Below, piece after piece: positions 33,178 through 56,839 of a stretch of DNA of 64,000 nt. Position numbers and translations under genes: made by a program. The notes beneath the pieces were generated by a model. That model saw nothing but the letters and a program-made list of their open reading frames with translations, ran no database searches and had not been told where the DNA came from. Each line of letters opens with the position of its first letter. Position 1 is the first letter of the stretch. The stretch comes from Acidobacteria bacterium UBA2990 (lineage in GTDB: Bacteria > Acidobacteriota > Vicinamibacteria > Vicinamibacterales > UBA8438), in assembly GCA_002347025.1 (NCBI GenBank), contig DEAE01000016.1, positions 6,877 to 70,876 of the forward strand, read 5' to 3'.

Positions 33178-33195
33178 GGATGGTCGACAAAAGTG

Positions 33196-37589: not shown

Positions 37590-37631
37590 GCCCCAGTTTC
37601 AGTACAGGTGGCAGGGCGACACGGCCTTCCT

Positions 37632-38447: not shown

Positions 38448-38465
38448 AAGGCAACCAACAACCGG

Positions 38466-41759: not shown

Positions 41760-41777
41760 AAATAGTTTCTAATGCCT

Positions 41778-43997: not shown

Positions 43998-45073
43998 AGC
44001 CTAACTCGACGCCACCCCACGACATGCTTATAGCCACTCTTTGGTAAATCGGCACCAGCGTCGAGCATCTTGGGATAACTGACCGGAAGCATCTTAACTT
44101 CATGCGGCCAGTAATATTCGCCAATTATCGAACGAACATTACTCAGTTCGCGATTGTGATGTGAGCGGTCACGGTTCAGGCTATAGAGATACGGACACTC
44201 TAGCTCGTAAGCATGGCGCACGTAGGCATGCACCTGCTGAGTAGTCATTTCCTGAAACGACACCATATTTAGCATCAAGTCGACCTGCTCTGGTTTCGAC
44301 TCAGCGTGGAACGTATCAGGAAGAAACACAAAATCAAATTCTTGCCAGTTATCGAAGGTTTCGCCAGCAGGAACCTCTCCGTAGAAGCGCACTCTAGCCT
44401 CAGGAAAAGCAGCCAACAGGTAGGTAGCTGAAAAAAGAAATAACTCCGGAAAATCAGTGATCACATAAGTTACATTGGGACACAAAGTCTTTAGCTGATA
44501 CGCAAACCCACCCCACCCAGCTCCAATCTCCCATACCAACCTTCGCTCAGTACTGTCACGAAACTCCGCAAGCACCGCTCCTGAATGCAGTGCGACCAGA
44601 ACCTCATAGAACTTCAGTGTGTCGATGTTGACAAGTTCACCATCGATTTCGAATCCGAATCCCCCCAGAAGAGGGGCTTCTGGCAACCACAAGTCAGCCT
44701 GATCTAGATCGCGAAGAGCCTCTAATTTTTCAGCAAACTGCTGGCGCTTCGTATCCAGACTAACCCTGTAATGCTGGGGCAGCAATCCCGTTAAGTTGTG
44801 CGTATGGTGCCTAAGCTGAGCAATCACCAACGGCGATGCATCCAGCATGTAATCAAACCTAGACAACTCACCAGACCAATAGTCACTCGGCACATGACCA
44901 CTGGACCTTCTGTTGTGCCCAAGAGCCAATTGGGCAATCACATGTCGGCGCACTCGAAGATATGCTTGATAAGCATGGGCATCCCGAGCCACCTGCAGGC
45001 GACGCTGCAGCTCTTTTTCCGCCAGGTCTGCCTTTGGCTCAGCGCCTGTCGTCATAGCACTCCGTTCTAACAA
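43994..45073 (-). CDS. putative class I SAM-dependent (sugar O-) methyltransferase
   Basis: VWEIGAGWGGFAYQL......V.YVITDFPE resembles a methyltransferase motif I plus an acidic post-I residue. The rest is unrecognised. It is ATGA-coupled to the GT2-B1 gene. Confidence 0.5.
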   Translation of the reverse strand: MLERSAMTTGAEPKADLAEKELQRRLQVARDAHAYQAYLRVRRHVIAQLALGHNRRSSGHVPSDYWSGELSRFDYMLDASPLVIAQLRHHTHNLTGLLPQHYRVSLDTKRQQFAEKLEALRDLDQADLWLPEAPLLGGFGFEIDGELVNIDTLKFYEVLVALHSGAVLAEFRDSTERRLVWEIGAGWGGFAYQLKTLCPNVTYVITDFPELFLFSATYLLAAFPEARVRFYGEVPAGETFDNWQEFDFVFLPDTFHAESKPEQVDLMLNMVSFQEMTTQQVHAYVRHAYELECPYLYSLNRDRSHHNRELSNVRSIIGEYYWPHEVKMLPVSYPKMLDAGADLPKSGYKHVVGWRRVRL

Positions 45074-45079
45074 AAACAG

Positions 45080-46708
45080 TCACCGAGGGTTCTGGCTCTG
45101 CTCTGATTGGGTCTTAGGCACATCACCGGATGCACTTACCGCATCTAACGCCGCCTTCGTCAATTGGGGTCGCTCTATCGTCCGAGACAAGCGGGGCAAG
45201 CGCCACTCCTGCTTAAGGCGTCCCCACCTGTTAATCATGAAACGAATCAACCGTTTCTTAAGCCTCTTGCGACTAGCTGCAAGCCCAATAGCCCACAAAA
45301 ACGCCTTAAGGGGGACGAGAAGCCCTGACACAGCGTCTGGCGGAATCGGCGCTACATGGTCTAGTCCCTCCAGCGCAGTTACGAACCGTGGTGTAGCGGG
45401 TACGTCAAATCCATGAGGCCTCACAAAGGCTTCAATGAATCGCCGACTTGAATGCGATCCACCAGTATCAATTATCGACACAAGCTGAGAGACGTGCTCA
45501 TCGAGGCTCGTCGCTCGTTGTAGATGTCCGCCATTCTCAGGCAGTAGATACTGGAAATGAAGAGTGCCAGTCTGTGTTCGGTCGAAAGAAGAGTCTATGA
45601 TTGTGAATACGGGTCGGTCTTGTATGCCGGCCTCAATCATTGCCGAGGTATTGATACCCACCACGGCCATACTGTGATGGAGGGTGTCGTAGTAATCGGC
45701 CCTGTCATCATCATCAACTGGGTTGGCACCTTGGTTCGGAAATACCACAACACTTCTATAACCTGTCAAATCAACATTCTGCCAATGGTTTGAATTATAG
45801 GGATGTGGCCTAATAAGGATCCCCAGTGTGCTCAGCGTTCCCGGTCCAAGACGGATCGCTTCAATCCACCGTTTCACGAACCGAACCTCAGTATCAGGGG
45901 CGGAAATCGAGGCCGTGGACCCAACAAAAACGATAAATGCTTCATCTACCGGAAGACCAACACGGCGGCAAAATCTTTCGCGAGACAGACGAGGCTTCCG
46001 ATCAAACCAACGATCAAAACACTGTGCGCCAGTAATAGCGATCCTGTCACCAGAAGCAGCATGAAACTCAATGGCCTCTCTCCGCTGATGGTGGTTCCAC
46101 AAAGTAACCAAATCCGGTTGAATACGCATGAGCCCCTTGGTCGTTAGGTGATCCCAAGAAGCGACGCCCAAGACGCTCGGTATCCCAACCCTCCTAGCCG
46201 ATTTAATCATATCGACCTGTGGACATTGATCGGTGACAAGAGGTGAGACAATAAGCACATCTGGGCTCACCTGTTGAAGAAACGAATCGAGATTCTTGTT
46301 ACTTGGAATCGCACGTTCACAAGCATCAAGCAAGGCAAGCAAGCGGCGAGTCTTACCTTCGGTGCTCATCTGCCACCGACCCAAGAATCGTGTCAAAGGA
46401 GGCAACACCTTACGCATTCGATTCCGCAGGTAGGGTGAGTCCGCAAAGCGAGGATGCAGATAGCGGATGTAATCCACTGTCCCACGTACACCACGAGCCA
46501 CTGGCTCCCAAACATCAGCTCGAACTGGAGTCCTACCCAGCACCTCGACCGCCCGGCCTGAGGCCTTAAATGCTGCAAGTCCTTCAGCCTGCTTGTGAGG
46601 TTGATCGAAGGCAACGGACACCTGGTGGCCGCGGGTCAATAGAGCCTCGACAACCGAATCAAAATAGCGCAGATAGCCTGGATACTGGAGGACAAACAAG
46701 AACTTCAT
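45080..46708 (-). CDS. family A paralog 1: uncharacterised GT-B-like transferase (542 aa) with basic C-terminal tail
   Basis: It starts MKFLFVLQYPGYLRYF.....L..RGHQV. Other motifs are GIPSVLGVASWDHLTTKG, FIVFVGSTAS, ILIRPHPYN, VVGINTSAMIEAGIQDRPVFTI and GTLHFQYLL. It is collinear with the N-terminal half of 47652..50348, and more distantly with 53069..54586. Confidence 0.6.
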   Translation of the reverse strand: MKFLFVLQYPGYLRYFDSVVEALLTRGHQVSVAFDQPHKQAEGLAAFKASGRAVEVLGRTPVRADVWEPVARGVRGTVDYIRYLHPRFADSPYLRNRMRKVLPPLTRFLGRWQMSTEGKTRRLLALLDACERAIPSNKNLDSFLQQVSPDVLIVSPLVTDQCPQVDMIKSARRVGIPSVLGVASWDHLTTKGLMRIQPDLVTLWNHHQRREAIEFHAASGDRIAITGAQCFDRWFDRKPRLSRERFCRRVGLPVDEAFIVFVGSTASISAPDTEVRFVKRWIEAIRLGPGTLSTLGILIRPHPYNSNHWQNVDLTGYRSVVVFPNQGANPVDDDDRADYYDTLHHSMAVVGINTSAMIEAGIQDRPVFTIIDSSFDRTQTGTLHFQYLLPENGGHLQRATSLDEHVSQLVSIIDTGGSHSSRRFIEAFVRPHGFDVPATPRFVTALEGLDHVAPIPPDAVSGLLVPLKAFLWAIGLAASRKRLKKRLIRFMINRWGRLKQEWRLPRLSRTIERPQLTKAALDAVSASGDVPKTQSEQSQNPR

Positions 46709-47655
46709 CTCACCGCCTCTGCCGGCACCGCACTACCCGGTTGGCCCTGCTCATCAACAGGCACCAGCATAAGGTCGAAACGAGTGAACTTACCGAACAC
46801 ATTCTTAATACGGTTCCCAGGCGCCTGATACGCCAGAGCTGAAGTCAGGGTCGGAAAATTCGAAGCTACGTCCTCGCGGAGAAACACCGCATTAACCCGT
46901 TCACTCGTAACTAACCGGTAGCCTTTCCGACGTCCCAAGCGGACCATCGCCTCAAGTGAGGCACCACGATAAGCTCGAGTTGGAGCAGTCTTGATAAAGA
47001 AATTTGGATCATAGGGAATCGTTGCCGAGACAGTAGGACCTAATAAATAGTTGTATTCAATGATAACCACCCTTGGTCGGCAGATAGTGAGGGCATCCCA
47101 AAGCCAAAAATCATTACCGTCAACATCTAGACTCAGGAGATCAATCTCACCTCGGAAACCAGCCTCCGCCAACACAGTATTGATATTCTCTCGAGACATC
47201 CGATGGGATTCCGTCAGAACATCCTCACTGGCGAAACGAACAGCCACCTTTTCAACTGCGGCTGGCTGTGCATCGATCATTAAACCGCTCCAACCGCACT
47301 CCTGAGCAAGAAACCCGGAGTTTCCTCCGTTGACTCCACAACCAATCTCAACGAACCGGCTATTCGTGATACCCACCTGCTTGAAAAGTTCGACCAACAA
47401 CCCGTCTTCCTCATTCTGGGACGTAACACCAAATCGACGAGAGCGAAGAAGTTTTCTTGGTGGCAAGTCAACATCTTCGAGAAACATCCTGCGAGCGACC
47501 GCACTCACAGTTCGATGCGTCTTCTGGAGTTCAACCATCGAACGTTCGAGACGTTCGAGACGTTCGAGTACCTTGTCCAGGCGGTCAGCAAGATCCGCAC
47601 CAGTCGACCTGCCAAGAATTCGCTCCCAAAGCTTTGTCAAATTCATCAGTCTCAC
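46705..47655 (-). CDS. family C paralog 2: coiled coil + FkbM-like methyltransferase-like domain
   Basis: It shows SQNEEDGLLVELF..VG.TNSRFVEIGCGVNGGNSGFL....GWSGLMIDA ... IDLLSLDVDGNDFWLWDAL. The N-terminus contains LERLERLER. It has 4-nt overlaps with both neighbours. Confidence 0.6.
   Translation of the reverse strand: MRLMNLTKLWERILGRSTGADLADRLDKVLERLERLERSMVELQKTHRTVSAVARRMFLEDVDLPPRKLLRSRRFGVTSQNEEDGLLVELFKQVGITNSRFVEIGCGVNGGNSGFLAQECGWSGLMIDAQPAAVEKVAVRFASEDVLTESHRMSRENINTVLAEAGFRGEIDLLSLDVDGNDFWLWDALTICRPRVVIIEYNYLLGPTVSATIPYDPNFFIKTAPTRAYRGASLEAMVRLGRRKGYRLVTSERVNAVFLREDVASNFPTLTSALAYQAPGNRIKNVFGKFTRFDLMLVPVDEQGQPGSAVPAEAVR
47542..47568. repeat. perfect 3 x 9-bp tandem repeat (acgttcgag) inside family C paralog 2
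   Basis: 47542..47550, 47551..47559 and 47560..47568 are identical. On the minus strand the unit reads CTCGAACGT and encodes LER-LER-LER in the coiled-coil segment. Confidence 0.95.
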
Positions 47656-50348
47656 AAACGATCTTGGGTAACCGTTGCCAACCCATGGTCAACGGCCGAC
47701 CGAGCACCGTTAGGCATTGAGGCCACGTCGCCTCCATCAGGCTGCATCAGGACATGGCTCAGCAAATCGAGCCCTTCTACATCAAGGGCTACATAGGATC
47801 CACGTTTTAACTTCGCTGCAACTCTGTACATTAAGTCCAAGTGGTGGGGTGCAACATGAGCCGGGCTGGAATAGAACGCCAACGACCTTACCCCATAGAA
47901 CGGAGCGAGGTAAGACAGTCCTCCATAGTTGCCTATGAAGGCCTGAGCTCCACAGATTACCTTGGTCTGGACGTCGAGGTTATTACTAGGCTCAAGAAGG
48001 TGATCAATTGGGTGCACCTTTCTTGTAACGTCCGGCTTTAGATCCCAATGATCATCAAGATCATAACCAGGGTTTAACAGCACGACATCCGTAGTCTCCG
48101 TTATCCGCGTGAGCAACTTTCGAACGAAGATGACATTGGCTTCGGTCTCTGGGAACGCCGTATTGTGATAGAACCGAACCGCAATATACCTGTCAGGCAA
48201 TTTAGCCGAGATATCTGATATATCGAGGCTCGGCAGGCGCTTAAAAGATGCGAAATTCTCGATAAGATTGATTGATGTACGGCTCTTCCAATAGGGATAA
48301 AAAAGTCTATACATATACATTGGGTGAAACATCTGCACGTCTCTACGCTGAATGGACACCTTTACAAGTTTGACAACCTCTCGCTCAAAATCCGTGAAAG
48401 CTCTCTGCTTCATCTGTCCAGACGCGATCTGCTCTTCATTTCTCTTTTTCAACTGCTCAGGTGTGAAAAAATCAAACACATCGACGTAGTGATTACCTAT
48501 GTTCCTGTACCAGGAAGCTACTCCGCCACGAGATACGATAATCATGCGTTCTTGATCAAATTCTCGATAAGTCTTCACCCAATTCAAGAACGGCAACCAA
48601 TAAAGCAGTTCGAACCCAACCTCGCTCAGCCACGGCCCCACAATCAGCGGGCGGTCAATCTTGTGCATCTTGTCAATGACGCGGGGAATGGCCACCATCT
48701 CTTCTGTTGGCTCATCAGGATTCATTCGCGACATAACTCGCGGAACCATATATTTCTTAACGAACCCTTTTGCCGGACGCCAACGCAACACAAGATCAAG
48801 AAGATCGAACAATGGTTTAAGTAGAAACCCGCTAACAGTCAGTGGCCTTAGCTTGCGCTGCCGTTTCACCCGCACCCGTGCAAAGTGGCGTACCACCTTC
48901 AGCCCGAGAGCCGCCGGCCACAAAACACACCTAAACAGATATAGGGGCAGTCCAAGGCGCTCAGGCGAACCAGGAGAAAGCCGTCCTAGAGCTTCAATCC
49001 CGTCGGCTATGAGCGGCGTTGCTGGTACAGCTAAGCCTTCTGGGCGAACGAACCCCTCCAGAAAGCCTTTTCGCCTCGCGTCCTCCTTGAGTCCTTCAGT
49101 GAAAGCATGACTCAGTTGTTCGACATGGCGATCAAATCCTCTGGCGTTCTGAGCCAGGCCACCACCAACTTCAAGCAAATAGTGAAAATGCAGGGTACCC
49201 TCTTGAGTTCCAGCGTGTTCCTCACTTTGAATGGTGAAGACCGGTCGACCCACAACTCCGGCTTCAATTTGAGCACTCGTGTTTACGCCGACCACCATTG
49301 CACTATGAAAGAGGGAATCAAAAAAATCGTTCTTCGAGACCTCGTCTACTGGATTGGCACCACCCAATGGCCACACTACAACATCGTTAAACTCAGCTAG
49401 ATCATACTTTTGCCATGGTTGCACATTCTGGGGATGGGGCCGAACTAGCACAGCCGCTTCGCGCACCCTGACGTCGGTCGACGTTCGCAAAGCTCGGACC
49501 CAGCGATCGACGAACGCCGCTTCATTCGGAGCGATAAACCCAGAGGAACAAACATACAGAATGAAAGGCTGGTCAACTGGTAATCTGACCTTGCTACAGA
49601 ACTCCTCTCTCGTGGTGCTCGGCTTTCGATTGAACCACTGGTCGTAGACAGGAGCCCCAGTCACCAGGACATCAGCAGCATCTACACCATGCATCTCAAC
49701 TGCCTCGTGTTTCTGGAACTCGTTCCAGACATACACGCGGTCCGGTAAGAGCCGTATCAGGCCCTTGTTTGTCAGGTTGTCCCAACTGTGAACGCACAAG
49801 CCAGTCCGGATGCCACGTGCTTGAGCACTCTTGATGTAGTCAACCTGATCTGAGCCCAGATCAACCAGTGGAGTCACCAACACAACATCTGGCTCTTGTG
49901 CAGCGATGAGCCCATCAACCCAAGAATCGGTAGGAATCGCCTGCTCAATCCACAACAGCAACTTCCAAAGCAAACGCCGGCCAGTCGCGGAGTCCACTAG
50001 GGGCAACCCGCTGAACCAAGCGATTGTTCCGGGAAGCCGTGTCTCGGCTCGTTCCCTAAGCTTTTCAGCGATCTGATACTCAGGCGCACGATAGCGCAGA
50101 TAGTCAGCCCACAGCCTTACGCCGCGAGCAAGCCCCAACCAATAGCGATACGGGGTCTTCTTTGTCAGCTCAGAATAGGTAACGCTTGGGCAATCGTCGG
50201 TCAGCTCCCAAAGCAAGCGGCCGTCACCCAGGCGGTCTTGCATCACGAACGACAAATGTATGTCGTGCCCCCGAGAAGCTAACTCACGCACGGTGGAGCC
50301 AAAATTTCGGAGTGTTCCTGGATGACGCATCGAAAAGAAGATCTTCAT
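47652..50348 (-). CDS. fusion: family A domain (A2, approx 48930..50348) + family B GT9-like domain (B2, approx 47655..48653), 898 aa
   Basis: The start is reset to the ATG at 50348 (MKIFFSMRHPG, matching MKFLFVLQYPG of A1), which forms an ATGA with the stop of the Wzt-like gene. The A motifs are GIRTGLCVHSWDNLTNKG, LVRPHPQN, VVGVNTSAQIEAGVVGRPVFTI and GTLHFHYLL. The B motifs are RPLIVGPWLSEVGFELLYWLPFL, YIAVRFY and FIGNYGGLSYLAPFYGVRSLAFYS. Confidence 0.7.
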   Translation of the reverse strand: MKIFFSMRHPGTLRNFGSTVRELASRGHDIHLSFVMQDRLGDGRLLWELTDDCPSVTYSELTKKTPYRYWLGLARGVRLWADYLRYRAPEYQIAEKLRERAETRLPGTIAWFSGLPLVDSATGRRLLWKLLLWIEQAIPTDSWVDGLIAAQEPDVVLVTPLVDLGSDQVDYIKSAQARGIRTGLCVHSWDNLTNKGLIRLLPDRVYVWNEFQKHEAVEMHGVDAADVLVTGAPVYDQWFNRKPSTTREEFCSKVRLPVDQPFILYVCSSGFIAPNEAAFVDRWVRALRTSTDVRVREAAVLVRPHPQNVQPWQKYDLAEFNDVVVWPLGGANPVDEVSKNDFFDSLFHSAMVVGVNTSAQIEAGVVGRPVFTIQSEEHAGTQEGTLHFHYLLEVGGGLAQNARGFDRHVEQLSHAFTEGLKEDARRKGFLEGFVRPEGLAVPATPLIADGIEALGRLSPGSPERLGLPLYLFRCVLWPAALGLKVVRHFARVRVKRQRKLRPLTVSGFLLKPLFDLLDLVLRWRPAKGFVKKYMVPRVMSRMNPDEPTEEMVAIPRVIDKMHKIDRPLIVGPWLSEVGFELLYWLPFLNWVKTYREFDQERMIIVSRGGVASWYRNIGNHYVDVFDFFTPEQLKKRNEEQIASGQMKQRAFTDFEREVVKLVKVSIQRRDVQMFHPMYMYRLFYPYWKSRTSINLIENFASFKRLPSLDISDISAKLPDRYIAVRFYHNTAFPETEANVIFVRKLLTRITETTDVVLLNPGYDLDDHWDLKPDVTRKVHPIDHLLEPSNNLDVQTKVICGAQAFIGNYGGLSYLAPFYGVRSLAFYSSPAHVAPHHLDLMYRVAAKLKRGSYVALDVEGLDLLSHVLMQPDGGDVASMPNGARSAVDHGLATVTQDRL

Positions 50349-52219
50349 GACAAGACCTGATCTAACCAAGCACTGAGTCGCGTCGCGGTAAGTTCACTAG
50401 CTTTCTCAAGATCGACGCACTCATCCGTAACTGTCTTCACCATGGAGCGCAAGACCCGAACATGATGCGAAAAAAGTCTGCCTTCCTTTTCAAAAATCAT
50501 CAAAGTCGGCACCCGGTAGAAAGGAGGCAATAAGGAGATGCTACCGAATGTCCCAATGTAGGCACGGGCCCCGGCTATAACCTTAGCTTGCTCCCTCAAC
50601 TGGCTCTCAGATCGGCCTGGCGCTGGCACGACCTGAACATTGTTCGAATCAGAGTTCCCCTGTAGCCGAGGAACAAAACCATCAGAATCGACCAACCTAA
50701 CCGGTAGACGTTTGGCTAGATCGAGCGATATCCAATTCATTAAATCGCGGTGCGGCTTAGTATCCTCAAAAGAAGAGCTAAACCGGAAACCTAACACCGC
50801 GTAAGGCTGAGCTTCCTTTTGGATTGACTCGGTCGTAGCTACCGGCGGAGTCAACGGCTCATAACGCGAATGCTCATCCAACCACGAATCTGGCAATGAT
50901 CCATCCCAAACCCTCGAGCATGCATTGAAGAGAAGAGAGGGATGGACTACGGCATAGTCCTTCGTATCAATCCGCTGTGCGACACATTCAAGCAGCTCGG
51001 TATCAAAATTCGATATCTGCTTCTGTTTCCAGGACCCAGTCTCTTTGATTCGGTCTCGATTTCGATGCTCAAACACATCAAATGAAACTAGGTCGCACAC
51101 ATCGATATAAGATCCCACAAGGCTGCCATACCACTCATCAACCCGTCCGCGCGACACCGCAACAACAGGCCCAGGCGGCCTACCGAATTGACTAAACATC
51201 CAGGCAACAAACGGTCGCCAATAAAGCAATTCCAGTCCCACATCAGAAAGGCACGGACCAATAATGATTGGCCTGTGTCCGTCCCAAGCCTGAGTCACAT
51301 GATGGGACACATCAGGAGCAACACCTGTTCTTTCAAGACTGCGCACAGCCCGGCGAACGATTTCGCCAGGTTCTAAGCGAACAGGGGCATCAGGTGACCG
51401 GCTACCATCCTCGACAAGCCGAGATTGCACTTGGTCTAGGCGATTGAGCCGATAAACAAACTTGTCATAAACCGGTAGGACCATCTGAGGACTACCCTCA
51501 TAAACAACATCGCCTTCATGCAAGATCATCGCGCGTGAGAAGTTCGCTTGCTCTGGAAGACCTGCCGCTACTGACGATAGAATGAGATTCGCGCCCTGCT
51601 CTAGGACCAGCCCTACACGATCCGCCACCCGTCTCGACACCGGATCGTCACCGGCCCTCGGAAAACCGTCAAAGATACGAATGTCCTTCGGAACAACTAG
51701 AGCTGACACCAACCCCAATTGACCTCCACGCTCCTTCGGCAGGTCGATGAGCTTAGTGTCCCTCTCATCTGACAACCCTGTAATATCAAGCACCTCTTCA
51801 CAGCACTTACCGGAAAGTTCGGGCTCGACGCCATGAATGGCGGTAGCAAGCTGCACACACTCCCAAACCGTCAAAAAAGCAACCATTCCCACAGGTCTGG
51901 CACCCACCAGACCCACGCGGCCACCAGCATGGACATGCCCCGCATCGGCACGCAACATCCCCGTCAACAGCTTTGCGATAGTCGTCTTGCCAGAACCTGC
52001 CGCTCCGAGAACAAGGACGTTCTCACCTTCTCGCATCGTGACGGAAAATCCTCGGATCGCCACCCACTCATCAGGTCGGAGACGATTCAGCGACCGCTTA
52101 CCAAAACGAAAAATATCTGCGAACACATGTCGACGTCCCAGCTCAAAATCAGAGGTAAATACCTTGGCAAGAGCTTTACATTCAAGCAACGTCCTGGGCC
52201 TAGCCGTGCTCATCATCAC
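50345..52219 (-). CDS. fusion: Wzt/TagH-type ABC nucleotide-binding domain with degenerate catalytic motifs (approx 51425..52219) + family B GT9-like domain (B3, approx 50348..51274)
   Basis: The Walker A motif LGAAGSGKTT is intact. The Walker B region reads IRIFDGFPRAGD, against the subfamily pattern hhhhDE.L.VGD, so Gly185 replaces the catalytic Glu. The H-loop reads LILSSV, against VSH. The signature region reads KERGGQ. The C-terminal part (RPIIIGPCLSDVGLELLYWRPF ... YIGTFGSISLLPPFYRVPTLMIFE) is homologous to B1 and B2. Confidence 0.7.
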   Translation of the reverse strand: MMMSTARPRTLLECKALAKVFTSDFELGRRHVFADIFRFGKRSLNRLRPDEWVAIRGFSVTMREGENVLVLGAAGSGKTTIAKLLTGMLRADAGHVHAGGRVGLVGARPVGMVAFLTVWECVQLATAIHGVEPELSGKCCEEVLDITGLSDERDTKLIDLPKERGGQLGLVSALVVPKDIRIFDGFPRAGDDPVSRRVADRVGLVLEQGANLILSSVAAGLPEQANFSRAMILHEGDVVYEGSPQMVLPVYDKFVYRLNRLDQVQSRLVEDGSRSPDAPVRLEPGEIVRRAVRSLERTGVAPDVSHHVTQAWDGHRPIIIGPCLSDVGLELLYWRPFVAWMFSQFGRPPGPVVAVSRGRVDEWYGSLVGSYIDVCDLVSFDVFEHRNRDRIKETGSWKQKQISNFDTELLECVAQRIDTKDYAVVHPSLLFNACSRVWDGSLPDSWLDEHSRYEPLTPPVATTESIQKEAQPYAVLGFRFSSSFEDTKPHRDLMNWISLDLAKRLPVRLVDSDGFVPRLQGNSDSNNVQVVPAPGRSESQLREQAKVIAGARAYIGTFGSISLLPPFYRVPTLMIFEKEGRLFSHHVRVLRSMVKTVTDECVDLEKASELTATRLSAWLDQVLS

Positions 52220-52253
52220 CTAACCAGTAGCATCAACAAACGGTCACCCATCC

Positions 52254-53072
52254 TCAACGCCTTGCCTGAGGCAGGCTCTGCACTGCCAGGGGCATAGCTC
52301 GTTGAAAAAACAAGTAGATGCCCCCAGCCAGCACAGCGAGAAGGGCAACACACATGAGGAAAAGCAAATCATTATCCGTGGCCCCACTAACAAGCCACCG
52401 CCGAGGAATGTTAATTAGATAAGTCAGTGGATTCCAACGGTTAACCACAGCCAGTAACCCCGTTTCTGGTTCCGCGTACAAAATAGGGGCCGTCCACAAC
52501 AGGACCGGAGCAAGCATTGGCAAACCGAAGCGAAAATCAAGGTAAACGAAGGTCAAGGGAACAAAACAAGCACCCACAATTAACCCACCCAAGACGATCA
52601 CGGGCAAGGCAAACACCCCCAGAGGTAGCGTCAAGGGTGGCGAAGCACTCGTCAGTAGGTAGGCAGATAAGAATAGCGCCCCATAAAACATCGAGTTAAA
52701 CAACACAAGTCCAGCACCGGCCGTCAGCACTGCCTCAGGACGCAATGGACCATCAACGAATGTCCGGCGCAGTCGTCTGCCGAGCCACTGCGGAGCGATG
52801 ACGGCGTCCCAGAACATCTGCCACAGTAAGAATCCGCTCAAAGCGTAAAGCACATACTCACCTGCACTCATATCACCACCGAAACCAAAGGCATTGCCTA
52901 CTAGAATCAACGGTAATACCGCCATCAAAGGACGAGCAATAGCCCATACGTATTTCAGAAAAGCCTGCCGATAGCGCGCGCGAAAATCCCTCAGGAAAAG
53001 CAGTCGTCCGACGAAAACTAATTGCCTCACACTCGATTGCTGGGTCGACTGACATCTCCAATGCTTATTCAT
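52254..53072 (-). CDS. ABC-2-type polysaccharide exporter permease (Wzm/TagG/KpsM-like)
   Basis: F.RDFRARYRQ.FL...WA...PL, followed by 6 hydrophobic segments, is typical of ABC-2 permeases. The start is reset to the ATG at 53072 (MNKHW..), which forms an ATGA with the stop of 53069..54586. The track start at 53120 would overlap by 52 nt. Confidence 0.75.
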   Translation of the reverse strand: MNKHWRCQSTQQSSVRQLVFVGRLLFLRDFRARYRQAFLKYVWAIARPLMAVLPLILVGNAFGFGGDMSAGEYVLYALSGFLLWQMFWDAVIAPQWLGRRLRRTFVDGPLRPEAVLTAGAGLVLFNSMFYGALFLSAYLLTSASPPLTLPLGVFALPVIVLGGLIVGACFVPLTFVYLDFRFGLPMLAPVLLWTAPILYAEPETGLLAVVNRWNPLTYLINIPRRWLVSGATDNDLLFLMCVALLAVLAGGIYLFFQRAMPLAVQSLPQARR

Positions 53073-54586
53073 GATTCGTTGCCCCACGCTGTTGTCTGTC
53101 GCAACGTACGGAGGACCCACCCAGCCAGACGTTCACTCGCACCACCAGCAGGAACTCCACAACAACGATGGACCAATTCACATCTCGCTTCCTCATCCTT
53201 ACTTGGGTCCACCAGATAGGAACGTACTAACTCGATTAGATCGCCTGGGCTTGTTGCAATACGAGCCGCTTGAGTCTCAACTACCGCCTGGTAGTGCTCG
53301 TACTGATAATACCGACTAATTGACAATGGTAAATCCAAGTTCGGCACCTCATCGTAGCCAACATTGACCACGGGAGTATCGAACAGGGCTGCTTCTATTG
53401 TCGTAGTCGATGCGAAATTCACGATGACGTCACTGTGCGCTAAAGTGCCAGCCAGACGACGACGGTCGCCGATGTCCGGCGTGAAAGCATCAAAGTAATG
53501 TACGCCAGGCCCACACTGAAGCCGGTGGAACGGCTTTTCCACAAACACCCGGTGCCCATCATGAAGACCTTGATACGACTCAGTGGCATCCCTGGGGTGG
53601 ACTCGCACAAGCAGCTGGACATCAGTCCCCAACTTGCTGTCTCTTGCCGCTGCAACCAAGGTTTCCACGACTTTCTCTGTGGTTGGGTACACCGGGGCAG
53701 GGGCGCTTGCTAAAGTCACTAATGGCCTTGCCGGGTCAGCCCCAAAAGCTCTAAAAAACTCCTGCCTCGTCGGAATGGTGTCACCCTGGCTATACACATC
53801 AAACGACACTGGTCCTGTGACCGCCACGCGATCGGGATGAAACCCGTGATAACGAACCGCCTCGGTCCGCATGGTCTCATTCCATACAGCCAAATGGTCA
53901 ACAGGGAGAACGGTGTGGTATTTGGATGAGAGATTGTCCCACCCAAGATCGACTCCCATTTGGGGCACACCAAAGGCCTTGGCTGCATAAATAAGCGGTA
54001 CCTCCAGGGGAAGGAATCCTGCAGTGGAAGTCACCAACATTACCGGCCGATAGGTTTCGAATAGACTTCGGTAACCTTCTAGATTAGTTATAGCCTGCGC
54101 TAGACGAAACCACCTACTCCGCGATAGCGGTAGGCGGCAAACGACTGCCTTGATCGCACTTAACAATTTCCGTCCACGCCACCCATCGAGCAATCTGGCC
54201 CGATCACGCTGAAGGCGAACCGCACGCAGCTTAGACTCCAGAAGAAATTTCTCGCTCAGGATAGAATCGACCACCCGCTCGAGGATTCCTGGTCTGAACT
54301 CAGGTAACGGCAGACAAATCACACCGGCACATTTGAGTTCGTTGGCCAGCCGGTCGTCTGAAGCGAACGGCGACAAGACTGCAATTCTTAGACTCGGCCG
54401 CGCATCAAGCAGGAAACGGAGAAACGACCCGCGAGCTAGGTCGGCCACATGGTGACCAGCCGGCACTGACAAAAAGATCGTCGACTGGCCGACTCGTGGA
54501 CCAGACAAAGAGTGATCTAATAGCCCTTCTATCGTCTCTTTCGTTGGTCCTATCGGCAAGCTCGAAGTGACCATCATAGGATGCAA
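53069..54586 (-). CDS. family A paralog 3 (divergent): uncharacterised GT-B-like transferase, 505 aa
   Basis: GVPQMGVDLGWDNLSSKY, AVWNE..R.EAV.YHGF..DRV.VTGPV.FD, LLVRVHPRD and VIVNFASTTTIEAALFDTPVVNV are collinear with the A1/A2 motifs. Confidence 0.55.
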   Translation of the reverse strand: MHPMMVTSSLPIGPTKETIEGLLDHSLSGPRVGQSTIFLSVPAGHHVADLARGSFLRFLLDARPSLRIAVLSPFASDDRLANELKCAGVICLPLPEFRPGILERVVDSILSEKFLLESKLRAVRLQRDRARLLDGWRGRKLLSAIKAVVCRLPLSRSRWFRLAQAITNLEGYRSLFETYRPVMLVTSTAGFLPLEVPLIYAAKAFGVPQMGVDLGWDNLSSKYHTVLPVDHLAVWNETMRTEAVRYHGFHPDRVAVTGPVSFDVYSQGDTIPTRQEFFRAFGADPARPLVTLASAPAPVYPTTEKVVETLVAAARDSKLGTDVQLLVRVHPRDATESYQGLHDGHRVFVEKPFHRLQCGPGVHYFDAFTPDIGDRRRLAGTLAHSDVIVNFASTTTIEAALFDTPVVNVGYDEVPNLDLPLSISRYYQYEHYQAVVETQAARIATSPGDLIELVRSYLVDPSKDEEARCELVHRCCGVPAGGASERLAGWVLRTLRQTTAWGNES

Positions 54587-54587
54587 G

Positions 54588-55088
54588 TTACGTCTTTGCT
54601 TGTGCGATCAAGTCGCAGACTTCACGCACAGCGCCGTAGCCCCCCATCCGCGAAGTAATGAATTGGGCAACGTCCTGTACTTCAGGATAAGCATCAGCTA
54701 CACAAATCGAAATGCCAACATTTCGCAGACAGTCCAGATCGTTGACATCGTTACCAACATAAGCCACGGCCCTCAGATCAAGCCCACGCTCTGTAATAAT
54801 TGTTCGAAGGGTCGCCCATTTGGTATCACCAAGGCCTTGTTTACACTCTAGTTGTAGCTTCGTAGCACGAGCCGATACAACAGGATTGGTCTCTGTTGAC
54901 AGAACCATACAATCGACGCCGACCCGACCTAACATCTGCACACCTAGCCCATCCGACCTGGAACAATAAACAGATTCCCGGCCATCTTCTCCGACTAAAA
55001 CTCGGTTGTCCGTGAACACCCCATCAAAGTCAAAAACAACGAAGGTAACCGCACTGAGGTGATCCTTTGTGATTGGTATAGCCATCAT
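54588..55088 (-). CDS. KdsC-family HAD phosphatase (ulosonate-phosphate phosphatase)
   Basis: It has VVFDFDGVFTDN (the DxD nucleophile motif), ....DG.G...L...G......ST......V..RA..L and YVGNDVND, typical of Kdo-8-P / Kdn-9-P phosphatases. Confidence 0.8.
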   Translation of the reverse strand: MMAIPITKDHLSAVTFVVFDFDGVFTDNRVLVGEDGRESVYCSRSDGLGVQMLGRVGVDCMVLSTETNPVVSARATKLQLECKQGLGDTKWATLRTIITERGLDLRAVAYVGNDVNDLDCLRNVGISICVADAYPEVQDVAQFITSRMGGYGAVREVCDLIAQAKT

Positions 55089-55297
55089 TCGGACCGAACT
55101 TGATGAATCTTGGCCCTACCAGTCTTAAAACGGATGGTGCCGACATGCCTAGATCCAAAATTCGAACCAAGCAGAACATCAGTCATACCACCCCGCATAA
55201 TCTGACGCAGCCGCCTGAAACCGGCCAAAAGAAAGTAAATTTCCCCTCCCGCCATCAAGTAGCACGCTGACTCGCCCTTTGCCGACCCGACGCCCAT
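55085..55297 (-). CDS. possible small ORF translationally coupled to the KdsC-like gene (up to 70 aa; very uncertain)
   Basis: The only support is that its TGA overlaps the kdsC-like ATG as ATGA (55085..55088), and that it lies in an otherwise unexplained 387-bp gap. It has no recognisable motif. Confidence 0.2.
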   Translation of the reverse strand: MGVGSAKGESACYLMAGGEIYFLLAGFRRLRQIMRGGMTDVLLGSNFGSRHVGTIRFKTGRAKIHQVRSE

Positions 55298-55475
55298 GGC
55301 TCCCGGCCAACTTTGCCGACGAATTTTCTCGGTGAAGCCTCTGAGAGGGAAAACTGATCAGGGGATACAGGGGTAACAGCCAACAAGTTGAACAAATTTT
55401 ACAGTATGGCACGGCGGCGATCAATATGCATCACCTGCTGGTATCACTACCTAGGACACCGACAGTCTGGCCAAA

Positions 55476-56441
55476 TCACACTTCGAACTCGACAAGCGGT
55501 AGGTTGGCGGCCGCCACATATTTGTAGATGTCCTCTTGTTTCCTACGCATCCAAACGTCGTAACGCTTTAGCAGTCTAAAAGCATCAGCTGGGCTACAAG
55601 CTGGAATCTCTGCACCGACATCATTACGGAGAAAATAAGCATTTACCCCGGTGGGCTCAGTTGCTACTAGTCGATACCCTTTAGCAGCACCGAGTTTAGC
55701 CAGAGCCGCTAGCGAAGCACCATAGTAAACAAATCGATGCTTATGCACGTCAAATTGTGGATCGTAGGGAATCGTAACGGCTCGGTCTGGTCCAAAAGCA
55801 GAATTGTATTCCACGACAACGACCCTCGGCGAACAAGCTGTTACAGCCTCCCAAACCCAATAATCATTCCCATCAAGATCGATACTCATAAAATCGATCT
55901 CGCCATCCAGTCCAGCATTGGCAATCAACTCGTTAATGTTTTCACGGGTAATCCAGGCACCTAACGCGACCACGCCAGGAAAACGCCGACCAACTTGCAC
56001 CATCCGCTCTTTATCACCATCAAGCATCAACCCTGTCCACCCCAACTCACTTGCGAGACAGGCTGAATTACCTCCACTCAGGCCAGACCCTACTTCCACG
56101 AACCGACGATTAGTTGAACCAATCTGTTCAAAGATCGCCAATGTGATGCCATCCTCTTCGTTTTGAGAGTTCAGACGATACCTACGAACCATTAAACGCT
56201 GAGGGTAGGGCAGGCTTTCTGAATCCAAGTGGTGCATACGAAGGACAGCCTGCACGTCCGGACCCAACCGCGAGACCCGTCGAGACACCTTCATCAAAAC
56301 CGTAGTCATTGCCTGCTGCTCAGTCTCGAGGGTTTCCAACCTCTTGTTGGCTGCGGTCAATTCCAAACGCAGGAGGCGAATCTCATCTAGCAACTCTTGA
56401 TAAGCACGGCCGGTCTCCACATCTTCATCCTCAATCATCAC
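55476..56441 (-). CDS. family C paralog 3: coiled coil + FkbM-like methyltransferase-like domain
   Basis: It shows SQNEEDGITLAIF..IG.TNRRFVEVGSGLSGGNSACL....GWTGLMLDG ... IDFMSIDLDGNDYWVWEAV. It is ATGA-coupled to the upstream 133-aa gene. Confidence 0.6.
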   Translation of the reverse strand: MMIEDEDVETGRAYQELLDEIRLLRLELTAANKRLETLETEQQAMTTVLMKVSRRVSRLGPDVQAVLRMHHLDSESLPYPQRLMVRRYRLNSQNEEDGITLAIFEQIGSTNRRFVEVGSGLSGGNSACLASELGWTGLMLDGDKERMVQVGRRFPGVVALGAWITRENINELIANAGLDGEIDFMSIDLDGNDYWVWEAVTACSPRVVVVEYNSAFGPDRAVTIPYDPQFDVHKHRFVYYGASLAALAKLGAAKGYRLVATEPTGVNAYFLRNDVGAEIPACSPADAFRLLKRYDVWMRRKQEDIYKYVAAANLPLVEFEV

Positions 56442-56839
56442 GATTTTAACTTTCGAGCCAGGTCAGCCTCTAAGTCAACATGGCGACGCACCCCTGTGAG
56501 CTCCTTGGCTGCCCTGTCCAAACGACTTTTAACTGCCAGTGCTTGCGATCGAAATGCCGCCGTTACAAGTGACAGATCAGACAACAGCAGCCCGTGAATT
56601 AATACTTCATCAGCCTCAAACGAAGGTCCTTCACCGAGCTGGACAGCCAGACGCCCTGCACGTTGTAACAAAGGCTCAAGCACAGGTTCCATCTCCCGAC
56701 ACATCGTAGCGTCAGGTTCGTCCGGCATAGCAATGGAGTTAGCAACCCGGACTGCACGAATAGCAGACCGGAGCCTGCAGTCCAATGCCTCAAGACGTTG
56801 TTCCAGTGTATTCGCAGCCATCGGACTAGCAAGATTCAA
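56438..56839 (-). CDS. hypothetical alpha-helical / coiled-coil protein (133 aa), first gene of the minus-strand supercluster
   Basis: The sequence is heptad-like and Leu/Arg/Ala-rich. It overlaps family C paralog 3 by 4 nt and has no enzymatic motif. Confidence 0.45.
   Translation of the reverse strand: MNLASPMAANTLEQRLEALDCRLRSAIRAVRVANSIAMPDEPDATMCREMEPVLEPLLQRAGRLAVQLGEGPSFEADEVLIHGLLLSDLSLVTAAFRSQALAVKSRLDRAAKELTGVRRHVDLEADLARKLKS

What the first reader, a model, noticed from the sequence alone, without database searches (positions are those of the whole stretch)
50345..52219. The locus's only ABC ATPase lacks the catalytic Glu and the H-loop His, and carries a glycosyltransferase-like domain where Wzt proteins carry a carbohydrate-binding domain
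**The NBD.** It aligns by eye with the Wzt/TagH/KpsT subfamily: Walker A LGAAGSGKTT at residues 71-80, GGRVG..., and the subfamily-typical ..GD after Walker B.

- The Walker B segment reads IRIFDGFPRAGD. Codon 185 (51667..51665) is GGT, so Gly occupies the position of the catalytic glutamate (hhhhDE).
- The H-loop segment reads NLILSSV where VSH is expected.
- The signature region is KERGGQ, with no Ser.
- No second NBD gene is present in the window.

A homodimer of this protein would have two hydrolysis-deficient sites.

**The C-terminal half (residues about 316-624).** This is the third and most divergent copy of the family B GT9-like module. Characterised O-antigen Wzt proteins carry a beta-sandwich cap-binding domain at that position.

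**Possible readings.**
- An ATP-binding but non-hydrolysing scaffold that tethers the family A and B enzymes to Wzm.
- A transporter energised differently, or by an NBD encoded elsewhere.
- A decaying gene. The intact 624-aa frame and the ATGA coupling argue against this.
Basis: partly seen in the sequence, partly recalled or inferred. Interest (0 to 1): 0.8.

Follow-up and report, generated by a model that had tools for sequence, protein, structure and literature searches.

The report
Dead Wzt ATPase fused to pseudo-glycosyltransferase
The partner of a polysaccharide-export channel in uncultured Acidobacteriota keeps the fold of the channel's ATP motor but has lost the residues known to be needed to hydrolyse ATP, and it carries a similarly degenerate sugar-transferase-like domain, so this export system probably works or is powered differently from the studied ones.

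Summary

- **The gene.** ORF 50345..52219(-) encodes a 624-aa protein. Its N-half is a Wzt/TagH-type ABC nucleotide-binding domain, by sequence and by predicted fold.
- **Motifs kept.** Walker A (G72..K78-T79-T80) and the Walker B Asp184.
- **Motifs lost.** Q-loop (Phe115), signature (L160-P-K-E-R164 opposite Y-S-S-G-M), catalytic Glu (Gly185), D-loop Asp (variable across the family) and H-loop His (S216/V217, with a one-residue deletion).
- **Family-wide.** The same pattern holds in all 36 family members examined, down to 27% identity.
- **Only one in the window.** It is the only ABC domain and the only real P-loop in the 64 kb.
- **Its neighbour.** It sits directly after a bona fide, strongly conserved Wzm permease in every intact locus examined.
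- **The C-half.** It has a GT-B fold, nearest to GT9 heptosyltransferases. It is a paralogue of a large family with no Pfam model, but has lost residues invariant in 41 non-fused members (Glu, Asp-Asp-His, Asn).
- **Selection.** dN/dS is 0.24, so the gene is selected and not decaying, but it evolves faster than its neighbours.

**Best reading:** a non-hydrolysing pseudo-Wzt adaptor on a Wzm channel. How export is energised is open. No description was found in four full-text paper searches. I rate it a new variant of a known kind.

The parts
50345..52219 (-). Whole gene: pseudo-Wzt fusion, 624 codons plus stop. The real start is probably the ATG at codon 2, 52216..52214.
   Evidence: The orthologue P0001 has 623 aa and starts one residue later.
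51410..52219 (-). Residues 1-270: ABC nucleotide-binding-domain fold of the Wzt/TagH/TarH subfamily.
   Evidence: - Pfam ABC_tran scores 34.8 bits (cut-off 25), but only residues 56-100 match.
- phmmer against the PDB aligns residues 50-268 to TarH 6jbh (E 1.7e-11) and residues 50-254 to A. aeolicus Wzt 6amx (E 7.2e-11).
- Foldseek top hits are TarH 9cfl_B, Wzt 8dne and 6m96, and TagH 7dd0, with E from 2e-16 to 9e-15 and target-normalised TM 0.75-0.80 against the NBD-only chains.
52109..52147 (-). Residues 25-37: helix inserted between beta-1 and beta-2, in the position of the Wzt/TarH cytosolic 'gate helix'. F25, R29 and D35 are invariant in 28 orthologues.
   Evidence: AF2 secondary structure is E10-22, H25-37, E51-63. 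The definition of the gate helix comes from PMC6379404.
51980..52006 (-). Residues 72-80, GAAGSGKTT: Walker A, intact.
   Evidence: G77, K78, T/S79 and T80 are each present in 35 of 36 family members.
51875..51877 (-). Phe115 in the place of the Q-loop Gln/Glu.
   Evidence: The position holds F in 33 and Y in 3 of 36 members, never Q or E.
51728..51742 (-). L160-P-K-E-R164 opposite the Wzt signature Y-S-S/T-G-M: the signature motif is lost.
   Evidence: The signature consensus comes from PMC6379404.
51665..51682 (-). I180-R-I-F-D184-G185: Walker B, with the Asp kept and Gly (GGT at 51667..51665) in place of the catalytic Glu.
   Evidence: Asp is present in 35 of 36 members. The next position holds G in 29, E in 3, D in 3 and S in 1.
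51569..51577 (-). S215-S216-V217 opposite V-S-H: the H-loop His is absent, and there is a one-residue deletion.
   Evidence: His occurs in 0 of 36 members and the deletion in 36 of 36.
51284..51490 (-). Residues 244-312: long helices linking the two domains. This is the least conserved part.
   Evidence: AF2 places helices at H244-270, H284-298 and H300-312. The linker has lower identity and high dN/dS over only 42 codons.
50348..51283 (-). Residues 313-624: GT-B-fold domain, a degenerate paralogue of 'module B'.
   Evidence: - The AF2 model has pLDDT 87.4 and pTM 0.86.
- Foldseek hits are WaaC 2h1h and 2gt1, WaaF 1psw, GT9 3tov and TibC 4rap, with E between 6e-7 and 3e-4.
- BLASTP matches it to the window paralogues.
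- The family profile hits 1547 representatives.
50663..50671 (-). P517-R518-L519 where 41 non-fused module B proteins have D-D-H.
   Evidence: In the non-fused set, D is present in 41 of 41, D in 36 of 41 and H in 41 of 41. The triad is intact in 0 of 35 fusions, and His is kept only in P0193.
52254..53072 (-). Wzm homologue (ABC-2 type polysaccharide permease), 272 aa counted from the ATG at 53072. It lies immediately upstream of the fusion with a 34-nt gap.
   Evidence: - NCBIfam KpsM NF050053 matches at E 5e-6 over profile positions 6-217 of 257.
- The family profile hits A. aeolicus Wzm 6m96_B end to end, E 1.6e-3. Apart from a second Wzm construct, the only other hit was a chance match at E 0.29.
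- ATGA overlap with the upstream gene.
- dN/dS is 0.07.
47652..50348 (-). Downstream gene translationally coupled by ATGA: module A plus an intact module B (E, DDH and N all kept).
41778..43997 (-). GT2 domain plus an intact module B.
53069..54586 (-). Module A protein (weak match to the BFO_1060-family glycosyltransferase and surf_polysacc models). It lies upstream of wzm and is coupled to it by ATGA.
25503..26567 (-). Polyprenyl-phosphate sugar-1-phosphate transferase (Glycos_transf_4), the likely initiating enzyme of the same locus.
22290..24353 (-). Membrane protein with about 12 predicted TM segments and a weak Wzy_C (O-antigen ligase) match, at the distal end of the locus.

Best explanation
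The protein is a pseudo-Wzt, the cytoplasmic partner of the adjacent Wzm channel.

**What it keeps:** the Wzt/TagH NBD fold, the gate helix and the cis Mg-nucleotide ligands (Walker A Lys/Thr and Walker B Asp).

**What it has lost:** the canonical elements that act in catalysis or across the NBD dimer, namely the Q-loop, the signature, the catalytic Glu, the D-loop Asp and the H-loop His. It therefore cannot run the canonical ATP-sandwich hydrolysis cycle. At most it binds nucleotide as a structural ligand or switch.

**Its C-terminal domain:** this sits where Wzt proteins carry a carbohydrate-binding domain. It is a GT-B paralogue of the locus's own module B transferases that has lost family-invariant residues (E, DDH, N). 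It is therefore most likely non-catalytic.

**Proposed function (inferred):** an adaptor that sits on the Wzm dimer. The pseudo-transferase domain either holds the growing or finished lipid-linked glycan, or recruits the active A and B transferases at the channel entrance. This would couple assembly to translocation.

**Shown:** the folds, the motif losses, the synteny and the purifying selection.
**Inferred:** docking on Wzm, nucleotide binding without hydrolysis, and the adaptor or reader role.
**Open:** the energy source for export.
For: **Register and motif losses**
- Four independent methods confirm the register.
- The losses are family-wide in 36 members spanning 27-92% identity: Q-loop F/Y in 36 of 36, no His in 36 of 36, catalytic position G 29 / E 3 / D 3 / S 1, no SSG or SGG signature in any.
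- Walker A GK(T/S)T and the Walker B Asp are kept in 35 of 36.

**Subfamily assignment**
- The NBD is Wzt/TagH-type, with a helix between beta-1 and beta-2 that carries invariant residues.

**The permease partner**
- A Wzm homologue lies immediately upstream in the window and in L081, L082/L083, L084, L085, L087 and L088.
- No other gene with an ABC_tran hit lies within 8-10 kb in any of these loci.
- That Wzm aligns end to end with A. aeolicus Wzm. It keeps the equivalents of Pro32 and Asp167; family D195 is invariant.
- It is the most constrained of the three parts (Wzm, NBD half, GT-B half): dN/dS 0.07, and 49-67% identity where the fusion halves have 28-57%.

**The C-terminal domain**
- It has a GT-B fold and is a module B paralogue.
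- It lacks E326 (E in only 2 of 35 fusions), DDH (0 of 35) and N540 (1 of 35), which are invariant in 41 non-fused members.

**Selection**
- dN/dS is 0.24 for the fusion (NBD 0.16, GT-B 0.28), against 0.05-0.19 for most neighbours.
- The gene is selected but relaxed, as expected for a non-catalytic adaptor.

**Effect of losing the catalytic Glu**
- In A. aeolicus Wzt the single E167Q change is enough to stop hydrolysis (PMC6379404).
- Lack of the catalytic Glu is the hallmark of a degenerate site (PMC7544095 abstract).
Against: - No biochemical data exist, and an unconventional hydrolytic mechanism cannot be excluded by sequence.
- The rest of the genome is not visible, so an unlinked canonical Wzt may exist.
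- The locus has an initiating polyprenyl-phosphate transferase and an O-antigen-ligase-like protein but no Wzx-type flippase. The Wzm complex is therefore the only visible export route and presumably has to transport, which a pure scaffold does not explain.
- The strong conservation of Walker A and the Walker B Asp shows that nucleotide binding still matters in some way.
- Loss of E, DDH and N could mean a changed donor rather than loss of activity. One relative, P0193, keeps D-x-H but has lost Walker A, so the family is not uniform.
Confidence: 0.55

Rival explanations
1. The Wzm channel is powered by a canonical Wzt-type NBD encoded elsewhere in the genome. The fusion would then be an accessory subunit, or would form a heterodimer with that NBD.
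For: The locus appears to need export, since it has an initiating transferase and a ligase-like protein but no Wzx. Only 64 kb of the genome is visible.
Against: - There is no second NBD in the window.
- No other gene with an ABC_tran hit lies within 8-10 kb of the cassette in six other loci.
- wzm and the fusion are adjacent in every intact locus examined, which is the usual signature of a cognate TMD-NBD pair.
- In a heterodimer, the fusion's missing signature would cripple the partner's site and its missing Glu and His would cripple its own. Both sites would be defective (inference).
Confidence: 0.15
2. The protein is a working transporter ATPase with an unconventional catalytic arrangement, and its GT-B domain is an active transferase. 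Chain elongation or termination and export would then be physically coupled in one polypeptide.
For: - Walker A and the Walker B Asp are kept in 35 of 36 members.
- The core module B motifs are retained: GP, E330, W334, P336, SRG, WY, KQ, HP, GT.GG.
- The protein is under purifying selection.
- The Wzm partner is highly conserved.
Against: - Five separate catalytic or dimer-interface motifs are missing or variable. The positions are not replaced by a new conserved polar residue: the catalytic position is G, D, S or E, and the H-loop position is S, A or K.
- A single E-to-Q change already inactivates A. aeolicus Wzt.
- The residues lost from the GT-B domain are variable within the fusion lineage rather than switched to a new consensus. 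That pattern indicates relaxation, not a new specificity.
- Both halves evolve faster than all the neighbouring enzymes.
Confidence: 0.12
3. The gene is decaying, a pseudogene in the making.
For: It has lost many catalytic residues in both halves and is the fastest-evolving gene of the cassette.
Against: - The 624-codon frame is intact.
- The gene is translationally coupled to the next gene by an ATGA overlap.
- Full-length orthologues occur in at least 34 clusters at 90% identity, down to 27% identity.
- dN/dS is 0.24.
- Many invariant residues remain, including a conserved aromatic at the former Q-loop position.
Confidence: 0.02

Closest known systems
WzmWzt O-antigen ABC transporter (A. aeolicus 6m96/7k2t/8dne; E. 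coli O9a; K. pneumoniae O12)
   Same: - The gene pair is wzm followed by wzt.
- The permease aligns end to end with A. aeolicus Wzm.
- The NBD fold is nearest to Wzt, TarH and TagH, and includes a helix between beta-1 and beta-2.
- A C-terminal extension follows the NBD.
- The locus context is a lipid-linked glycan pathway with an initiating transferase and a ligase-like protein.
   Different: - The signature Y-S-S/T-G-M, the catalytic Glu (E167 in AaWzt), the H-loop His, the Q-loop and the D-loop Asp are all absent.
- The C-terminal domain has a GT-B fold rather than the beta-sandwich carbohydrate-binding domain.
TarGH / TagGH wall teichoic acid exporters
   Same: These give the best sequence and fold matches for the NBD: 6jbh, 9cfl and 7dd0.
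   Different: TarH and TagH are active ATPases with the full set of motifs. In B. subtilis TagH the C-terminal region is unrelated (my own knowledge).
Degenerate nucleotide-binding sites of heterodimeric ABC exporters (TM287/288, BmrCD, MsRv1273c/72c, CFTR, ABCB11)
   Same: They lack the catalytic Glu, and ATP is bound but not hydrolysed at the degenerate site (abstracts of PMC7544095 and PMC12038006).
   Different: Those transporters always keep one consensus site. The degenerate site combines the Walker B and H-loop of one NBD with the signature of the other NBD. Here a single NBD, encoded once next to a single permease gene, lacks both sets. A homodimer would therefore have no competent site.
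GT9 ADP-heptose:LPS heptosyltransferases (WaaC 2h1h/2gt1, WaaF 1psw; TibC 4rap)
   Same: These are the closest solved folds to the C-terminal domain: two Rossmann-like halves, Foldseek E between 6e-7 and 3e-4, probability 1.00.
   Different: - There is no sequence-level relationship: no Pfam Glyco_transf_9 hit and no PDB sequence hit for the family profile.
- TM scores are only 0.40-0.52.
- The fused copy lacks its own family's invariant residues.
Non-catalytic GT-B partners of active glycosyltransferases (for example GtfB of the streptococcal GtfA-GtfB complex); recalled from my own knowledge, not tested here
   Same: A GT-B paralogue that has lost catalytic residues and serves in substrate binding or as a partner of an active transferase.
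   Different: It is not fused to an ABC domain and is not associated with a Wzm channel. The analogy is functional only.

Membership tests
ABC ATPase (ABC_tran, PF00005) | Walker A, GxxGxGK[ST] | tested here: met
   G72-AAGSGKT-T80. GK(T/S)T is kept in 35 of 36 family members.
ABC ATPase (ABC_tran, PF00005) | Profile match over the whole cassette | tested here: inconclusive
   The score is above the gathering cut-off (34.8 bits against 25), but only residues 56-100 align to profile positions 2-46 of 137. NCBIfam and PDB alignments do cover residues 50-268.
ABC ATPase (ABC_tran, PF00005) | Q-loop Gln/Glu | tested here: not met
   Phe115. The position holds F or Y in 36 of 36 members.
ABC ATPase (ABC_tran, PF00005) | Signature (C-loop) motif: LSGGQ, or YSSGM in the Wzt subfamily | tested here: not met
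   L160-P-K-E-R164. No member has SSG or SGG.
ABC ATPase (ABC_tran, PF00005) | Walker B hhhhD followed by the catalytic Glu | tested here: not met
   IRIFD184 is present, but residue 185 is Gly (GGT at 51667..51665). Across the family the position is G 29, E 3, D 3, S 1.
ABC ATPase (ABC_tran, PF00005) | H-loop (switch) His | tested here: not met
   No His in 36 of 36 members, and a one-residue deletion in all of them.
Wzt/TagH/KpsT polysaccharide-export NBD subfamily | NBD fold closest to Wzt/TarH/TagH, with a gate helix inserted between beta-1 and beta-2 | tested here: met
   Foldseek top hits are 9cfl_B, 8dne, 7dd0 and 6m96. H25-37 lies between E10-22 and E51-63. The definition comes from PMC6379404. 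Residue-level equivalence of the electropositive pocket was not established.
Wzt/TagH/KpsT polysaccharide-export NBD subfamily | Encoded next to an ABC-2 (Wzm/TagG/KpsM) permease | tested here: met
   The synteny holds in 7 loci.
Wzt/TagH/KpsT polysaccharide-export NBD subfamily | ATP hydrolysis that drives export | not testable with these tools
   Sequence predicts no canonical hydrolysis. An ATPase assay is needed.
CBD-bearing Wzt (E. coli O9a / A. aeolicus type) | C-terminal beta-sandwich carbohydrate-binding domain | tested here: not met
   The C-terminal domain is alpha/beta with a GT-B fold.
GT9 glycosyltransferases (Glyco_transf_9) | Sequence-profile membership | tested here: not met
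   No Pfam or NCBIfam hit for the domain or for 40 family members. No PDB sequence hit.
GT9 glycosyltransferases (Glyco_transf_9) | GT-B fold | tested here: met
   Foldseek E between 6e-7 and 3e-4 to WaaC, WaaF, 3tov and TibC.
'Module B' family (unnamed; 1547 representatives) | Profile membership and core motifs (GP, E330, W334, P336, SRG, WY, KQ, HP, GT.GG) | tested here: met
'Module B' family (unnamed; 1547 representatives) | Family-invariant polar residues: E (LSEVG), D-D-H after the second strand of the C-terminal half, and N (NL..Q) | tested here: not met
   In the window these are D326, P517-R518-L519 and Q540. Across the fusion lineage, E is kept in 2 of 35, DDH in 0 of 35 and N in 1 of 35.

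The most novel reading that the evidence does not exclude
An ABC polysaccharide exporter has been converted into an ATP-independent conduit. The dead NBD cannot form the ATP sandwich, so it would hold the Wzm dimer permanently in the open-channel (nucleotide-free-like) state. The pseudo-glycosyltransferase domain would feed the lipid-linked chain into the channel. Directionality would come from cytoplasmic polymerisation by the A and B transferases, from periplasmic ligation, or from both, rather than from ATP hydrolysis at the transporter.
Probability: 0.2. Interest if true: 0.85.

Novelty: new variant of a known kind. Interest (0 to 1): 0.62.

Why it matters
All studied Wzm-Wzt, TarGH and KpsMT systems are ATP-driven pumps with two competent sites. 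Degenerate sites are known only in heterodimers that keep one working site.

This family differs in three ways. A well-conserved Wzm channel is paired, in every intact locus examined, with an NBD that has lost all canonical catalytic and dimer-interface motifs. That NBD keeps its nucleotide-binding P-loop. It has also swapped the usual glycan-cap-binding domain for a degenerate copy of the pathway's own transferase.

This raises testable questions:
- Can a Wzm channel translocate polymer without ATP hydrolysis?
- What does nucleotide binding alone do in such a system?
- Can a pseudo-glycosyltransferase act as the substrate reader?

The work also flags a large glycosyltransferase-like family (1547 clusters at 50% identity) that has no Pfam model and no solved structure.

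Tried and rejected
1. **Genome-contig scan.** I ran it with the family alignment to name organisms and obtain whole-genome context. One of the two back-translated patterns was the Walker A region, so the 80 loci returned were generic ABC ATPases.
2. **Pfam and PDB phmmer on the 288-aa upstream protein.** Both gave nothing. It was identified only with NCBIfam KpsM and with a family profile against the PDB.
3. **Foldseek with the full-length model.** It returned only NBD hits. The C-terminal domain needed a separate model.
4. **Module B family profile against PDB sequences.** This was meant to place the lost residues on a GT9 structure. It found no real hit, so the mapping of DDH to the nucleotide-binding side of the cleft rests on secondary-structure position and on my recollection of GT9 structures.
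5. **Formal alignment of the N-terminal 50 residues to A. aeolicus Wzt.** This failed because HMMER alignments start near residue 48-53. Equivalence with Tyr11, Lys12 and Tyr14 is therefore not established.
6. **Literature searches.** I searched for a Wzt-glycosyltransferase fusion or a degenerate Wzt and found none.
7. **Locus L086.** It is broken by frameshifts and was not used.
8. **Pseudogene reading.** Considered and rejected.

Full report
**1. What is there**

The ORF 50345..52219 on the minus strand is intact, with 624 codons. The start listed is GTG, but the ATG at codon 2 matches the start of the closest relative. The DNA reads att cgt atc ttt gac GGT ttt ccg, so codon 185 (51667..51665) is Gly directly after the Walker B Asp. 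The stop overlaps the start of the next gene in an ATGA at 50348..50345.

**2. Is the by-eye register right?**

Yes. Pfam ABC_tran matches above its cut-off, but only over residues 56-100. NCBIfam models of DrrA, ECF ATPases, TagH and the galactan Wzt align residues 50-260 at scores far below their cut-offs.

Three alignment-based tests agree:
- phmmer against the PDB aligns residues 50-268 to TarH (6jbh) and residues 50-254 to A. aeolicus Wzt (6amx).
- A 28-sequence family HMM aligns residues 48-282 to TagH, Wzt, TarH and ABCA4, with E from 1e-26 to 3e-24.
- MAFFT with the Wzt, TarH and TagH fragments printed gives the same columns.

An AlphaFold2 model (pLDDT 83.7) has as best PDB matches S. 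aureus TarH, A. aeolicus Wzt and B. subtilis TagH. E values run from 2e-16 to 9e-15, and target-normalised TM is 0.75-0.80 against the NBD-only chains.

| Motif | Canonical residue(s) | This protein |
|---|---|---|
| Walker A | GxxGxGKS/T | G72-AAGSGKT-T80, intact |
| Q-loop | Gln/Glu | Phe115 |
| Wzt signature | Y-S-S/T-G-M (consensus from PMC6379404) | L160-P-K-E-R164 |
| Walker B | Asp | D184, present |
| Catalytic base | Glu (E167 in AaWzt) | G185 |
| D-loop | Asp | D191 here, but variable in the family |
| H-loop | His | S216 or V217, with a one-residue deletion |

That condition is not met.

**3. It is a family trait, not an accident of this gene**

A search of 5.8 billion proteins found 34 full-length relatives at 27-92% identity. 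Where the source names them, they come from Acidobacteriota metagenome-assembled genomes, including Tara Oceans samples. A profile search of 1.84 billion representatives added more distant members of the same architecture.

Across 36 members:

| Position | Count |
|---|---|
| Walker A GK(T/S)T | 35 of 36 |
| Walker B Asp | 35 of 36 |
| Q-loop position | F 33, Y 3 |
| Catalytic position | G 29, E 3, D 3, S 1 |
| D-loop Asp | 16 of 36 |
| H-loop His | 0 of 36 |
| SSG or SGG signature | none |

So the residues that bind Mg-nucleotide within one domain are kept. All the canonical residues that catalyse hydrolysis or reach across the NBD dimer are gone. One outlier, P0193, has lost even GKT and the Walker B Asp.

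**4. Context**

*Only one NBD in the window.* Seventeen canonical ABC ATPases used as queries hit no other six-frame ORF. No other predicted protein has a real P-loop.

*The upstream gene is a Wzm.* The gene immediately upstream is 52254..53072, whose ATG overlaps the stop of the gene before it in an ATGA.
- Pfam and single-sequence PDB searches were blank.
- It matches NCBIfam KpsM (E 5e-6).
- A 27-sequence profile matches A. aeolicus Wzm over its whole length (6m96_B, E 1.6e-3). Apart from a second Wzm construct, the only other PDB hit was a chance match at E 0.29.
- The equivalents of the mechanistically noted Pro32 and Asp167 are conserved.

*The pairing is conserved.* In the window and in six independent loci, this Wzm subfamily is followed by a 610-626 aa fusion (L081, L082/L083, L084, L085, L087, L088). 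No other gene with an ABC_tran hit lies within 8-10 kb.

*The surrounding locus.* The locus 22290..56839(-) encodes:
- a WecA-like initiating transferase;
- GT4 and GT2 enzymes;
- three copies of an uncharacterised 'module A';
- methyltransferases;
- NeuB, cytidylyltransferases and a KdsC/KDN-9-P-phosphatase-like enzyme;
- an O-antigen-ligase-like membrane protein.

It has no Wzx-type flippase. The Wzm complex is therefore the only visible export route.

**5. The C-terminal half**

Residues 314-615 match the C-terminal modules of 41778..43997 (GT2 plus B) and 47652..50369 (A plus B) at 31% and 26% identity. Those two modules are 42% identical to each other.

A separate AF2 model of residues 301-624 is confident (pLDDT 87.4, pTM 0.86). 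It is a two-lobed alpha/beta GT-B fold. The best PDB matches are the GT9 heptosyltransferases WaaC and WaaF, a Veillonella GT9 and TibC. GT1 enzymes and UDP-GlcNAc 2-epimerases also rank among the top hits (E 6e-7 upward, TM 0.4-0.5).

There is no sequence-level link to GT9 or to any other described family:
- no Pfam or NCBIfam hit for the domain;
- no Pfam hit for any of 40 family members;
- no PDB sequence hit for the family profile.

The family itself is large, with 1547 representatives at 50% clustering. Most are stand-alone proteins of 310-450 aa.

**6. The fused copy is degenerate**

This is the main addition to the finding. In 41 non-fused members (39 stand-alone proteins plus the two window paralogues), four polar positions are invariant:
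- the Glu of LSEVG (41 of 41);
- the Asp and the His of an Asp-Asp-His triad that follows the second strand of the C-terminal lobe (D 41 of 41, H 41 of 41; the middle D is present in 36 of 41);
- an Asn (41 of 41).

In the fusion lineage these positions are substituted and variable. E is kept in 2 of 35, the DDH triad is intact in 0 of 35 (His only in P0193), and N is kept in 1 of 35. The window protein has D326, P517-R518-L519 and Q540. The structural core motifs are retained.

Variable replacement, rather than a new consensus, points to relaxation of an active-site or donor-site constraint. By position in the fold, DDH lies where GT9 enzymes contact the nucleotide of the donor. That last point rests on my recollection of WaaC structures and was not tested.

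**7. Selection**

Against the 92%-identical relative on L088, dN/dS values are:

| Gene or part | dN/dS |
|---|---|
| Fusion, whole | 0.24 |
| Fusion, NBD | 0.16 |
| Fusion, GT-B | 0.28 |
| Wzm | 0.07 |
| A+B | 0.09 |
| Other neighbours | 0.05-0.26 |

Against more distant loci, both halves of the fusion are always less conserved than the cassette genes that have a clear orthologue in that locus. The NBD is 51/57/31% identical and the GT-B half 43/50/28%. Wzm is 60/67/49% and A+B is 65/78%.

The gene is therefore maintained by selection, but under weaker constraint than the true enzymes and the channel. That is the expected pattern for a non-catalytic adaptor and rules out decay.

**8. How it most likely works**

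*Shown:*
- a Wzt-type NBD fold with the gate-helix insertion;
- retention of the cis nucleotide ligands;
- loss of all canonical catalytic and trans-acting motifs;
- obligate adjacency to a conserved Wzm;
- a GT-B domain that has lost its family's invariant polar residues;
- purifying selection.

*Inferred:*
- The protein docks on the Wzm dimer like a Wzt.
- It may bind nucleotide but does not hydrolyse it. A single E167Q change suffices to stop A. aeolicus Wzt.
- Its pseudo-transferase domain stands in for the carbohydrate-binding domain. It would either bind the glycan terminus or recruit the active A and B transferases to the channel mouth.

A heterodimer with a canonical NBD would not rescue activity cleanly. 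This domain would contribute a dead catalytic half to one site and a missing signature to the other.

*Open:* the energy source. The candidates are an unlinked Wzt (rival 1), an unconventional mechanism (rival 2), or an ATP-independent open channel driven by polymerisation or ligation (the novel case).

**9. Comparison with what is known**

The system is built like WzmWzt or TarGH and should be filed next to them. It fails the defining catalytic features of an ABC ATPase, and the C-terminal domain is not a CBD.

Known degenerate ABC sites occur in heterodimers that keep one consensus site (abstracts). I found no report of a Wzt-like protein with all sites degenerate, or of a Wzt-GT-B fusion, in four full-text searches. 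The library is incomplete, so absence there is not proof.

**10. Verdict**

I rate the finding a new variant of a known kind, of moderate-to-high interest (0.62). The anomaly is real, conserved and experimentally tractable. However, the function and the energy source are inferred from sequence and predicted structure only, and the rest of the genome was not visible.

Noticed in passing
window 41781..42800(-), 47655..48677(-), 50348..51283(-): 'Module B' is a large uncharacterised GT-B-fold family. It has 1547 representatives at 50% clustering, mostly stand-alone proteins of 310-450 aa. It has no Pfam, NCBIfam or PDB sequence match. Its motifs are sharply conserved: GPW.SEVGFE.LYW.PF, SRGG..WY, KQ, HPS, SFPDT..N, LLNTG...DDH.D, NL..Q and GTYGG.SYL.PF.GVP.
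   Followed up: partly
window 45080..46708(-), 48800..50348(-) (approximate N-half of the A+B gene), 53069..54586(-): There are three copies of 'module A', at 26-41% identity to one another. They give only weak NCBIfam hits to the BFO_1060-family glycosyltransferase and surface-carbohydrate-biosynthesis (surf_polysacc) models. They may be ulosonic-acid transferases.
   Followed up: partly
window 55476..56441(-), 46705..47655(-), 26564..27628(-): Three paralogues at 41-49% identity have no confident family assignment. One has a weak FkbM methyltransferase hit.
   Followed up: no
window 22290..24353(-) and 7979..9202(+): There are two Wzy_C (O-antigen ligase/polymerase-like) membrane proteins. 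The 687-aa one closes the glycan locus. The 407-aa one sits about 13 kb away next to a TPR protein. No Wzx-type flippase is present in the window.
   Followed up: partly
window 33196..39560(-) and 54588..55088(-): The locus carries a set of ulosonic or nonulosonic-acid pathway genes: NeuB, a CTP_transf_3 cytidylyltransferase, an SDR, an aldehyde dehydrogenase, a transketolase-like protein and a KdsC/KDN-9-phosphate-phosphatase-like HAD enzyme. A cytidylyltransferase-methyltransferase fusion lies at 40644..41759.
   Followed up: no
P0193 (599 aa), P0016, P0109 (relatives, not in the window): The family is not uniform.
- P0193 has lost Walker A (GPEDV..RR) and the Walker B Asp (now N), yet it keeps D-R-H in its GT-B domain.
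- P0016, P0109 and P0193 have Glu at the catalytic position, but they still lack the signature and the H-loop His.
   Followed up: partly
L084 and L085 (distant relatives of the cassette): In the most divergent lineage, the wzm-fusion pair is flanked by a sulfotransferase and two methyltransferases rather than by A and B transferases. Enzymes of these kinds make chain-terminating caps in CBD-dependent O-antigen systems (my own knowledge).
   Followed up: no
window 53069..53072 and 50345..50348: ATGA stop-start overlaps couple the module A gene to wzm, and the fusion to the A+B gene. wzm and the fusion are separated by 34 nt.
   Followed up: yes
window 13690..20623(-), 11824..13206(+): A Na+-translocating NADH:quinone reductase (Nqr) operon with ApbE, and a selenocysteine synthase (SelA), lie upstream of the glycan locus.
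   Followed up: no
L086: A relative of the cassette lies on a 72-kb ENA contig and is broken into many short ORFs, including a split NeuB. This looks like frameshift errors in the assembly rather than biology.
   Followed up: no
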